This document shows, in pieces, positions 4,681 through 36,331 of a DNA stretch of 64,000 bases; position 1 is the first letter of the stretch, and every line of letters begins with the position of its first letter. The stretch is from contig OX597814.1 of NCBI GenBank assembly GCA_951406725.2, positions 1,736,001 through 1,800,000 on the forward strand, given 5' to 3'. A program made the translations under genes and the position numbers. The DNA is from Octopus vulgaris (lineage: Eukaryota). Below the pieces are notes generated by a model, which saw only the letters and a program-made list of their open reading frames with translations, made no database searches and was not told where the DNA came from.

Positions 4681-4869
4681 ATTTGCCATGATAGATCACC
4701 AGCCACAAAATCTTTTCTATTTTCTCTCCCTGTTTATTTCCGTGTTCTTTTCTGTCGAAGAGCATAGGCGCGAAATGTAAAAGACTTTCTCACTTCCCGA
4801 GCGTTAAACTACTACACCTTCTTGTTGTTTACACACTCTTTCTCGTCTTTTGTTTTTTCTAAATTTTCA

Positions 4870-6441: not shown

Positions 6442-6957
6442 AATTTAATTGTATTTTATCCATCGATAAGTTACTCTTTCCTTCAAAATACATTTTTATC
6501 GAGAAGATTTACACATCAGCCAATAATTCAGGTGTCCAAGTGGTCATGCATACCAGAATACCATTACGGTTTTTCTTATCATGCCTACAGGTAAAAGAAT
6601 GACGGTAATTCTTTTGAGTTGGTGATGGGTGCCTGAGTTTCTGCAGAACTTGGTTGTGAATTTATTGGTCTCTACATTTACTTCTATCGTGTAATAAGTT
6701 TAATTTTTGCAGTTTGGTTTTATTTCAAGACGATGGAATTATTAACATATAGGATTCGATTTGATAACGGTTAGAATCAGAAGAGATCTTTATGGGTCAC
6801 TTAAAGACTTATTCAGAAGAATTACATTTGACACAAACTTACATACATCTATCCACTCAGGTTCTTTGGAAGAATATCAAAAAGCTGTGGGCCCTTGAAA
6901 CAGGTTGTTGCAGTAATGAAGTAATGAATGAATATATATATAGATATACACATACAT

Positions 6958-7044
<87 letters not shown>

Positions 7045-9740: not shown

Positions 9741-9936
9741 ATTCGCCATGATGGATCGCTAGCCTCTACACATTCTTTATTTTCTCTCCTTGTTTCTTTC
9801 TGTGTTTCTTTCTGTGGAAGAGCGTAGACTCGAAACGTTAAAGACTTTTTCACTTCCCTAGCGTTATACTAATACATCTGTTTGTTGTCTACACCACCTG
9901 TCTTCGTCTTTTGGTTTCTTTGTGAATTCTCCCAAT
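9741..9936 (+). mobile_element. Family C repeat with HHR-like motif at 9807-9844
   Basis: TCTTT-CTGTGGA-A-GAGCgtagACTC-GAAA-CG-TT-AAAGA. Confidence 0.75.
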
Positions 9937-22009: not shown

Positions 22010-22317
22010 GTATATATATATATATATAGAGAACATTGGTGATAGAACACACATCAAATTCGAGTCAACGACTTTATATATAACCCCACACCCCAGACAT
22101 TTAATCATATATAAATATTACCATGGTTCTTAAACATATAAAAATATAGATATACATAAAAAGGTAGAAGGTAAAAATATATATGCGAATAAAATACGTA
22201 TATAGAACGGCATATGAAAATGGTAAATATAAACGGCTAAACATTCATAAAAATAAAAATGCTATAAGCGTGTCCTATAAACCCTTTTGTTTCCATATGC
22301 ATATAATATATAAGACA

Positions 22318-22481
22318 CGAAGACAGGTGGTGTCGACAACAAACAGATGTATTAGTGTAACGCTCAGGAATTGAAAAAGTCTTTAACGTTTTGAGCCTAC
22401 GCTCTTCCACAGAAAGGAACACAGGAAGAAACAAGGAGAGAAGATAAAGAATGTGTAGTGGCTAGCGATCTATCATGGTGA
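22318..22481 (-). mobile_element. Family C repeat with HHR-like motif at 22380-22417
   Basis: Minus strand: cCTTT-CTGTGGA-A-GAGCgtagGCTC-aAAA-CG-TT-AAAGa. Confidence 0.75.
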
Positions 22482-22499
22482 AAAAAACCCAGATATATA

Positions 22500-34959: not shown

Positions 34960-35068
34960 GTGTAGGAGTGGCTGAGTGGTAAGAAGCTTGTTTACGAACC
35001 ACATGGTTCTAGGTTCAGTCCCACTGCGTGGCACCTTGGGCAAGTGTCTTCTACTATAGTCTCGGGCC
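34960..35068 (+). mobile_element. SINE family A head
   Basis: gtaggagtggctgagtggtaagaagcttg...ggttcagtcccactgcgtggcaccttgggcaagtgtctt. Confidence 0.85.
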
Positions 35069-35214
35069 TTCCTTCTCCCCCTCCTCTCTCTCCCCCTCTC
35101 CCCCTCTCCCCCTCTCCTCCCCCTCTTCTCCTCTCTCCACACTACACCACACGACTTTACACATCACATCATATATGATGTGCCATACTAATACATACAC
35201 CAACTAATACATAC

Positions 35215-35450
35215 TGATACGTACTAATACATACTAATACATACTAATACATACACCAACCCTATACATACACACGTCCAGACCCCTCATACGCACTTAT
35301 ACTCTCTCATACACACACACACACACTTATACATACTAATACGTACTAATACATACTAATACATACTAATACATACACCAACCCTATACATACACACGTC
35401 CAGACCTCTCATACGCACTAATACTCTCTCATACACACACACACACACCC
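35215..35450. repeat. ~120-bp tandem duplication of CA-rich sequence
   Basis: caaccctatacatacacacgtccagacc.ctcatacgcact.atactctctcatacac occurs twice. Confidence 0.8.
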
Positions 35451-35554
35451 TCATGTTGGAGCTGGTCATTCAACCCTATTATCAACCCTATTATCTCCCC
35501 TTATTTCGCTCTCGCGTCTCATGTTTGATCTTTGACCTCCGGCCGAAATCAGAT

Positions 35555-35762
35555 CGCCATGTTGATTCGTTAGTTACTGCACGCATTTTTTTCTCTCCTT
35601 CTTTCTGTGTTTTTTCTCTCTGTGTATCTTTCTGTTGAAGAGCGTAGGCTCGAAACGTTAAAGACTTGTTTTATTTATATTTCCTGAGCGCCATACTAAT
35701 ACAATTGTTTGTTTGTTTCCCACCTGCCTTCGTCTTTTGTCTATTTTCATAAAGCTTCCCGT
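35555..35762 (+). mobile_element. Family C repeat with the best-preserved HHR-like motif (35627-35664)
   Basis: TCTTT-CTGTTGA-A-GAGCgtagGCTC-GAAA-CG-TT-AAAGA: perfect 5-bp stem I and 4-bp stem II. Confidence 0.8.
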
Positions 35763-36331
35763 TATATATATATATATACCATAGTTACACACACACAAGC
35801 ACACACTCAGGCACTCACACACACACACACACACACTCACACACACACATCAGCACACGATTCGCCCGGCGTCATTTCTACTTCTAGAATGAATTTTCAC
35901 ATGGAGGCTTCTTTACGTAATGTGACAAAAACGTGTGTGTGTGTGTACATGTGTGTGACTGCATGTATGCATTTGTATCGCAGAAAGACGAGAAACTGAT
36001 GAAATTCAAAAATTCGTACAGAAATATGAACGTCCATTAAGTGGAGTAGGTGGAGAGTGATTAACGACATGGTTTAAACGATAATCTAGCGATAAAAACA
36101 GCGTCTACGAAAACACTGAAATCTCTCGCTGATGAATTCTATATAAGGTAGAAAACCCTAAACTTAGTGCTGGGTGTAGAGTACCATTTATATTTCATTA
36201 TTTATTGCTTCAATTGTGTCCTAATGCTTATATGACTTACCTTGTATATATATATATATATTATGATTTAATTGAGATCTATCGCAAATAGAAGCATAAA
36301 AACGCAGTGATTTTTTTGCAGTATATATTGT

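What the first reader, a model, noticed from the sequence alone, without database searches (positions are those of the whole stretch)
35627..35664. Family C hammerhead has a fixed A6U core change while position 7 varies
Seen: the four copies (4747, 9807, 22380-, 35627) read CTG-T-N-GA with N = C, G, G, T, followed by an extra A, a GAGC/GCTC-type stem II, GAAA-CG-TT-type stem III (AACGTT palindrome in three copies) and a CTTT/AAAG-type stem I. Established: position 7 is the free core position and A6 is almost invariant. Inference: variation at N7 with U6 retained hints at a natural core variant or a repurposed protein-binding fold. Four copies are too few to prove selection.
Basis: partly seen in the sequence, partly recalled or inferred. 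Interest (0 to 1): 0.75.

Follow-up and report, generated by a model that had tools for sequence, protein, structure and literature searches.

The report
Retrotransposon hammerhead with a detuned core
The motif is a small hammerhead-type RNA at the end of a recently copied Penelope-like jumping gene with over 20,000 copies in this animal genome; it carries U where hammerheads almost always carry A, which likely slows rather than abolishes self-cutting, but cutting has not been tested.

Summary
The four copies are 5'-truncated ends of a Penelope-like retroelement (RT plus C-terminal GIY-YIG), and the motif is the minimal type I hammerhead of its terminal repeat. U6 is fixed: 4,704 of 4,801 exact genomic matches, and both repeats of 10 of 12 long-ORF copies. 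The rare A6 copies match the neutral back-mutation rate. U6 is derived: three sister families keep A6 (83 of 84), and the oldest subfamily mixes A6, C6 and U6. Across seven subfamily consensuses only N7 and H17 changed among the motif's 28 positions, against 44 of 104 flank columns, so the motif stayed constrained after U6 arose. Retention of U6 itself proves nothing, since 58% of flank columns are also unchanged. Two sister families mostly carry another core change, U4C. Best reading: an attenuated, dimer- and protein-dependent ribozyme (0.5); main rival: a non-cutting fold kept for protein binding (0.3). Insertions do not start at the cut site, in U6 or A6 families. I found no natural A6U in print, but a key 2017 paper was unavailable. 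A sequence look-up of earlier scan notes found nothing; other hammerhead families in this genome were noted before.

The parts
35627..35664 (+). Intact minimal type I hammerhead of the youngest subfamily (S1): stem I 35627-31/35660-64, C3-A9 35632-38 with U6 at 35635 and N7 at 35636, extra A 35639, stem II 35640-43/35648-51 with GTAG loop, G12-A14 35652-54, palindromic ACGT 35655-58, H17 35659; predicted cut 35659|35660
   Evidence: sequence; fold and constrained structure; subfamily assignment
35067..35773 (+). 5'-truncated copy of the terminal repeat (pLTR) of the S1 Penelope-like element, followed by (TA)n
   Evidence: local alignment to the pLTR of full-length locus L063
4683..4872 (+). 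About 190-nt truncated copy, subfamily S5 (C7, H17=A); decayed hammerhead at 4747-4784
9742..9933 (+). About 190-nt truncated copy, subfamily S4 (G7, H17=T); hammerhead at 9807-9844 with a stem II mismatch
22317..22482 (-). Truncated copy, subfamily S4; hammerhead at 22380-22417 with G12A

Best explanation
The motif is the minimal type I hammerhead in the terminal repeat of a Penelope-like retrotransposon whose lineage replaced A6 by U, and it likely still cuts its RNA, slowly and only as a dimer with help from the element's protein. Shown: the host element, two U6 motifs about 4.5 kb apart in long-ORF copies, U6 derived from A6 and then kept through six subfamilies, and constraint on the rest of the motif in the copying lineage only. 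Inferred: two motifs pair through the ACGU palindrome to form stem III; G8 and G12 act as in other hammerheads and cut after H17; U6 weakens the uridine turn and lowers the rate; a low rate is tolerated or favoured because reverse transcription uses uncut RNA.
For: Host: L063 has pLTR / 969-aa ORF (RVT_1 E 1.4e-7; GIY-YIG E 0.0065, below cut-off) / pLTR at 99.5% identity. 10 of 12 long-ORF loci have two U6 motifs 4.4-4.6 kb apart. Fixation: U6 4,704, A6 28, C6 or G6 69; 154 of 157 sampled S1-S5 copies. Polarity: sister families X, Y, Z have A6 in 83 of 84, as do the 56 rows of Cervera 2014 fig. S3 (their search required A6). Constraint: 0 of 16 core columns against 44 of 104 flank columns vary, Fisher p=5e-4. 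The only two of 28 motif columns that changed are N7 (all four bases) and H17 (A or T; C in a sister; never G), the two free core positions. The fourth pair of stem I is C-G in S1-S6 (187 of 229) and G-C in X and Y (41 of 54). Precedent: natural A6C cuts at under 0.1/min (Perreault 2011), 0.004-0.05/min in Mg2+ and 0.3/min in Mn2+ (PMC7151607 Table 1). An anole PLE hammerhead cuts only with the element's protein, and uncut RNA is the main insertion template (PMC11167929).
Against: No cleavage was observed. Only 1 of 92 anchor-selected copies starts at the predicted cut site and 72 run through the whole motif; genome-wide, S1 starts at the cut site are no more common than at a control site with the same TA microhomology. 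A6 sister X shows none either (0 of 24), so this does not single out U6. A pairwise mutant scan found low activity, and no rescue, for CUGA-turn changes other than the C3-G8 swap (PMC9901934). Stem II, its loop and a 19-nt block downstream are also nearly invariant, which catalysis does not need, so binding alone could explain conservation. In Z the fourth stem I position is a C-A mismatch (19 of 30); the C-G/G-C swap is one event. Flank variability is inflated by pyrimidine-run indels.
Confidence: 0.5

Rival explanations
1. U6 stopped catalysis, and the hammerhead-shaped fold or its sequence is kept as a binding or positioning site for the element's protein near the point where reverse transcription starts.
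For: Catalytic mutants of the anole PLE hammerhead still support insertion in vitro. Most Naiad PLEs lack canonical hammerheads and still spread (PMC8557442). Insertions come from uncut templates. The loop of stem II is invariant in S1-S6. Two sister families mostly carry U4C (73 of the first 100 of 9,045 matches in X).
Against: The columns that changed are exactly N7 and H17, with H17 never G. My arithmetic gives 0.003 for hitting those two of 28 by chance, and 0.04-0.06 if the loop and extra A are counted as free. G8, G12 and the C3-G8 pair are kept in all 10 consensuses.
Confidence: 0.3
2. The motif is no longer used at all; U6 drifted into a successful master copy and the apparent conservation reflects short divergence, my way of finding copies and inflated flank rates.
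For: 60 of 104 flank columns are also unchanged. Sites were found by a pattern allowing at most 4 changes in the motif arms, so subfamilies that lost it would be missed. Inserted copies decay neutrally: in the G7 class, 58 changes at position 6, 45 at position 4 and 44 at a loop T. A, C and U at position 6 do not cluster on a tree of 73 S6 copies (21 changes, shuffle median 22).
Against: p=5e-4 for core against flanks. Copies chosen by a downstream anchor alone still carry the motif when they reach it (72 of 92 span it). The core is kept even between families whose flanks differ at 77 of 105 columns.
Confidence: 0.12
3. U6 is compensated, for example by the GUAG tetraloop of this lineage or by another metal ion, and the motif cuts as well as its A6 sisters.
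For: The 4-nt loop marks the whole U6 lineage while A6 sisters have 3-nt loops. A6C is largely rescued by Mn2+.
Against: The 4-nt loop is already present in A6 copies of the oldest subfamily, so it predates U6. No second mutation rescued CUGA-turn changes in the mutant scan.
Confidence: 0.08

Closest known systems
Minimal type I hammerheads (min-HHR) of metazoan Penelope-like elements (Cervera and De la Pena 2014, PMC4209133; main text parts 1-2 of 4 and supplement parts 1-2 of 3 read)
   Same: Sits in both pLTRs; extra nucleotide between A9 and G10.1; G10.1-C11.1 pair; no true stem III but a palindromic 15.2-16.2; short stem I; mostly solo truncated copies.
   Different: U at position 6. Their consensus is CUGANGAH, all 56 listed rows have A6, and the core variant they report is U3-A8. 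Stem II here is 4 bp.
Bcep176 A6C hammerhead (Perreault 2011, PMC3088659, section 8 and passages read; PMC7151607, passages and Table 1 read)
   Same: Natural substitution at position 6 in an otherwise complete core.
   Different: C rather than U; a single phage motif with a real stem III that was shown to cut. Here the change is fixed in a high-copy animal retroelement and is untested. C6 also occurs here in the oldest subfamily.
Poseidon PLE hammerhead of the green anole (PMC11167929; passages read)
   Same: PLE pLTR hammerhead; insertion from uncut RNA; no sign of ends at the cut site.
   Different: Conserved C3/G8 core overlapping the ORF start, and shown to cut with protein. Here the motif lies about 750 nt before the ORF start and about 820 nt after its end, so it is non-coding.
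Neptune/Nematis clades of EN+ Penelope-like elements (PMC8557442; passages read)
   Same: [quoted passage not shown]
   Different: The clade was not resolved by a tree with named references.

Membership tests
EN+ Penelope-like element | Single ORF with RT and C-terminal GIY-YIG endonuclease | tested here: met
   L063 ORF: RVT_1 E 1.4e-7 above cut-off, GIY-YIG E 0.0065 below cut-off; 1,485 relatives at E<=1e-20 among 7,986 candidates scored, many carrying PF00078 and some PF01541
EN+ Penelope-like element | Direct terminal repeats from partial tandems; many 5'-truncated copies | tested here: met
   pLTR pairs 99% identical or more in 6 of 11 loci examined; truncation map of 91 copies
Neptune or Nematis clade | CX2-5CxxC linker before the endonuclease; (TA)n target bias | tested here: met
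   CSRPRCRTC in the ORF; copies flanked by (TA)n
Neptune or Nematis clade | Placement on an RT tree with named members | not tested
   No named reference sequences were at hand
PLE minimal type I hammerhead | Stem I, stem II with G10.1-C11.1, extra nucleotide after A9, GAAA, palindromic stem III stub, UH | tested here: met
   stem I fourth pair C-G against G-C between lineages, mismatch in family Z
PLE minimal type I hammerhead | Located in both pLTRs | tested here: met
   10 of 12 long-ORF loci
Hammerhead ribozyme (consensus core) | C3 U4 G5 A6 N7 G8 A9 / G12 A13 A14 | tested here: not met
   U6 in 4,704 of 4,801 exact matches; every other core position met in all seven U6-lineage consensuses
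Hammerhead ribozyme (consensus core) | Self-cleavage after H17 | not testable with these tools
   No raw reads or runs on record as RNA; insertion ends give no signal in U6 or A6 families
Rfam hammerhead families | Covariance-model match | tested here: inconclusive
   No match at E<=10, but a canonical A6 sister copy also matched no hammerhead family
Non-LTR retrozyme | Short non-coding tandem repeats each with a hammerhead | tested here: not met
   Copies are dispersed truncated ends of a coding element of about 4.5 kb

The most novel reading that the evidence does not exclude
Successful Penelope-like lineages in this genome have repeatedly tuned down their ribozyme through the uridine turn (A6 to C to U in one lineage, U4C in two others, rapid turnover at N7) while keeping the catalytic guanines, because a slow, protein-gated cut balances RNA processing against the need for uncut template. 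The genome would then hold a dated natural series of rate variants, and A6-requiring searches would be missing a class of active hammerheads.
Probability: 0.25. Interest if true: 0.75.

Novelty: new variant of a known kind. Interest (0 to 1): 0.52.

Why it matters
The role of hammerheads in Penelope-like elements is open: they cut poorly in vitro and one was dispensable for insertion. Here a near-invariant core base changed in a lineage that went on to make over 20,000 copies and still has near-identical terminal repeats. Natural A6, C6 and U6 forms in one backbone, plus C4 sisters, allow a direct test of whether cutting matters. If U6 cuts, descriptors that demand CUGA miss real ribozymes. 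If it does not, this is a documented case of a ribozyme fold kept after loss of catalysis.

Tried and rejected
Rfam: no hammerhead match at the motif or at an A6 control; the whole-window scan listed only microsatellite-driven hits among the 150 shown of 549. Coding constraint on U6: rejected, the motif lies outside the ORF. A6 revertant subfamily within S4: not supported; T>A at position 6 (24) is like two control T sites (20, 16), and A6 copies are not clearly one clade (11 changes, shuffles 10-15). A self-inhibitory pairing created by U6 (UGU with ACG): predicted with probability 0.85-0.98 in S1, S3 and S6 but 0.2-0.44 in S2, S4 and S5; U6 raised the cost of the active dimer in four consensuses and lowered it in three, and A6 sisters have their own competing folds, so it is not kept as a mechanism. 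An A>C>U order in S6: suggested by flank markers (A6 7 of 17 with the oldest marker, C6 7 of 19 with the middle one, U6 20 of 24 with the latest) but not shown on a tree, and part of that sample was fetched with an A6 query. Cut-site starts of insertions: none in excess; the pattern for family Y matched nothing. Expression: no RNA holder listed; contigs only, no end pile-ups; the short lay listed no letter differences at any position, even N7, so it says nothing about position 6 in other organisms. Metagenome scan: one distant locus of 554 candidates, no hammerhead found beside it. Per-copy core-against-flank decay (5 of 645 against 253 of 5,361) is not used as evidence because detection and within-subfamily structure bias it.

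Full report
Observation. The four copies read as described. In the copy under study C3 is at 35632, U6 at 35635, N7 at 35636, the extra A at 35639, stem II is GAGC/GCTC around GTAG, G12 is at 35652, the ACGT palindrome at 35655-58 and H17 at 35659. Only this copy is intact. The 4747 copy has a broken stem II and stem III, the 9807 copy a stem II mismatch, and the minus-strand copy G12A. The four copies belong to three subfamilies.

Host element. The genome is 2.8 Gb in 227 contigs. Longer copies led upstream into RT and endonuclease sequence. A search with the RT piece gave many loci with long open frames, of which I fetched 20. L063 has a 1.36-kb repeat, a 969-codon ORF region with RVT_1 (E 1.4e-7) and a weak GIY-YIG hit (E 0.0065, under the curated cut-off), and a second repeat 99.5% identical. 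A CSRPRCRTC linker precedes the endonuclease, the mark of the Neptune and Nematis clades in PMC8557442 (passages). Ten of 12 loci chosen for the longest frames carry two U6 motifs 4.4-4.6 kb apart; of the other 8 loci, one has two, three have one and four have none. Repeat pairs are at least 99% identical in 6 of 11 loci examined, so the U6 form was copied recently. The motif lies outside the ORF. A 19-nt anchor downstream of it has 20,661 exact matches, a lower bound on copy number.

Fixation of U6. With the other positions of a 32-mer held exact, position 6 is T in 4,704, A in 28 and C or G in 69 matches (62 C and 7 G by my tally). In the G7 class, changes at position 6 (24 A, 31 C, 3 G) resemble those at U4 (20 A, 20 C, 5 G) and at a loop T (16 A, 22 C, 6 G) (tallies mine). 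Inserted copies therefore decay neutrally and A6 copies are ordinary back-mutations; any constraint acts on the copies that retrotranspose.

Subfamilies. From all fetched loci I collected 454 pattern hits and kept 361 with family-like flanks. They were sorted by flank markers alone; 44 stayed unassigned, and the copies fetched because they carry A6 were left out of the counts. Seven groups form the U6 lineage, from S1 (median divergence 1.1%) to S6 (7.5-9%). U6 is present in 154 of 157 S1-S5 copies, 27 of 31 S6b and 14 of 31 S6a (10 A, 7 C). In an S6 pattern search with positions 6 and 7 free, the first 100 of 271 matches gave 86 T, 8 C and 6 A (tally mine). Three sister families with the same stem II keep A6 in 83 of 84 copies and sit apart on a flank-only tree with full support. 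ORF remains lie upstream of some copies in every S group but of only 1 of 21 X, 1 of 33 Y and no Z copies, so the sisters' link to a PLE ORF rests mostly on flank similarity. U6 is thus derived and arose around S6. An A>C>U order is suggested by flank markers but is not resolved on a tree (21 changes, shuffle median 22), and 27 of the 62 S6a/S6b copies came from a search with an A6 query.

Constraint. Across the seven consensuses, 0 of 16 core columns vary against 44 of 104 flank columns (p=5e-4); across all ten, 2 of 16 (positions 4 and 6) against 77 of 105. One apparent loop change in S5 came from my query: genome-wide the base is G in 84 of the first 100 of 333 matches. So of 28 columns from C3 to H17 only N7 (all four bases) and H17 (A or T, C in family Z, never G) changed. 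No flank column shows four bases in the U6 lineage. The fourth pair of stem I is C-G in 187 of 229 S copies and G-C in 41 of 54 X and Y copies, but C-A in 19 of 30 Z copies. For U6 alone there is no signal, since 60 of 104 flank columns are also unchanged. Limits: detection used the motif arms, flank rates include pyrimidine-run indels, and other short blocks near the element's end are also conserved.

A second core change. Family X has 9,045 exact matches; 73 of the first 100 have C4, 25 T4, and 99 have A6 (tally mine). Z has C4 in 20 of 30. U4C is known from a viroid, where it lowers activity but allows infection (Perreault 2011), and one recent descriptor already allows it (PMC13481778, passages). 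An earlier scan note (e1-8666756, unchecked) reports a CCGA core in a different repeat of this genome.

Is the RNA cut? Among 92 copies chosen by the downstream anchor, 1 begins there and 72 run through the motif; 43 of 91 begin 81-120 nt upstream. Genome-wide, 16 S1 copies follow (TA)n at the cut site; among the 32 loci listed, 4 to 7 start there and 7 start at a control site with the same TA microhomology. Family X shows 0 of 24, Y 0 of 6, Z 0 of 3. Templates are mostly uncut in both kinds of family, as reported for the anole element. The element is held in runs under four organism labels, as contigs only, none on record as RNA.

Mechanism. Published PLE minimal hammerheads cut weakly and only as dimers or with an extended stem III (PMC4209133; review PMC6765202), and the anole one needs the element's protein. 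A6C lowers the rate without abolishing it, while a pairwise scan found low activity for CUGA-turn changes (I saw no value for A6U). I commit to an attenuated, dimer- and protein-assisted ribozyme at 0.5, a non-cutting binding fold at 0.3, no function at 0.12 and full compensation at 0.08. That the motif is a PLE minimal hammerhead with a derived, fixed U6 is about 0.95.

Novelty. Searches for A6U with hammerhead, for CUGUNGA spellings, for worded forms, for hammerhead with Penelope and a guessed animal group and general searches listed no natural A6U hammerhead; I read listings and the passages named, not every hit. Lunse et al. 2017 (about 150,000 PLE-linked variants, recalled) is not held, and I did not see fig. 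S7 of Perreault 2011, part 3 of the Cervera supplement, or the supplements of the bioRxiv preprint (part 1 of 5 read); any of these could already record U6. PMC7229834 passages mention atypical PLE variants without naming position 6. Scan notes gave nothing by sequence or by these words. Verdict: a new variant of a known kind, interest 0.52.

Noticed in passing
L152:9415-9441 (+) and family X genome-wide: Sister family with a CCGACGA core (U4C) in 73 of the first 100 of 9,045 exact matches; family Z has C4 in 20 of 30.
   Followed up: partly
window 9742 and 4683; 91 anchor-selected loci: 5' ends of insertions cluster 81-120 nt upstream of the predicted cut site (43 of 91), near CGCCATG; family X ends look similar. 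Possibly the transcription start of the repeat's promoter or a reverse-transcription stop.
   Followed up: partly
core position 7 (window 35636): N7 shows all four bases across seven subfamily consensuses while no flank column does; it changes faster than the flanks, which is unexplained.
   Followed up: partly
window 35685-35705: GAGCG and CTAATAC motifs downstream of the hammerhead are kept in all ten families; CTAATAC also recurs many times in the S1 repeat upstream (about 35180-35420).
   Followed up: no
L073-L076 (G000:C31): Four loci on one small contig have RT and endonuclease remains but no hammerhead; downstream lies another repeat whose translation resembles a mariner transposase motif (recalled, not tested).
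   Followed up: no
L060:2369-2614 and 6749-6993: A long-ORF element whose two terminal repeats are only 85% alike and belong to different subfamilies (S1 and S2), suggesting template switching or tandem insertion.
   Followed up: no
window, throughout: Very dense (TA)n, (CA)n and (TTA)n microsatellites; they drive the Rfam microRNA hits and the repeat families listed.
   Followed up: no
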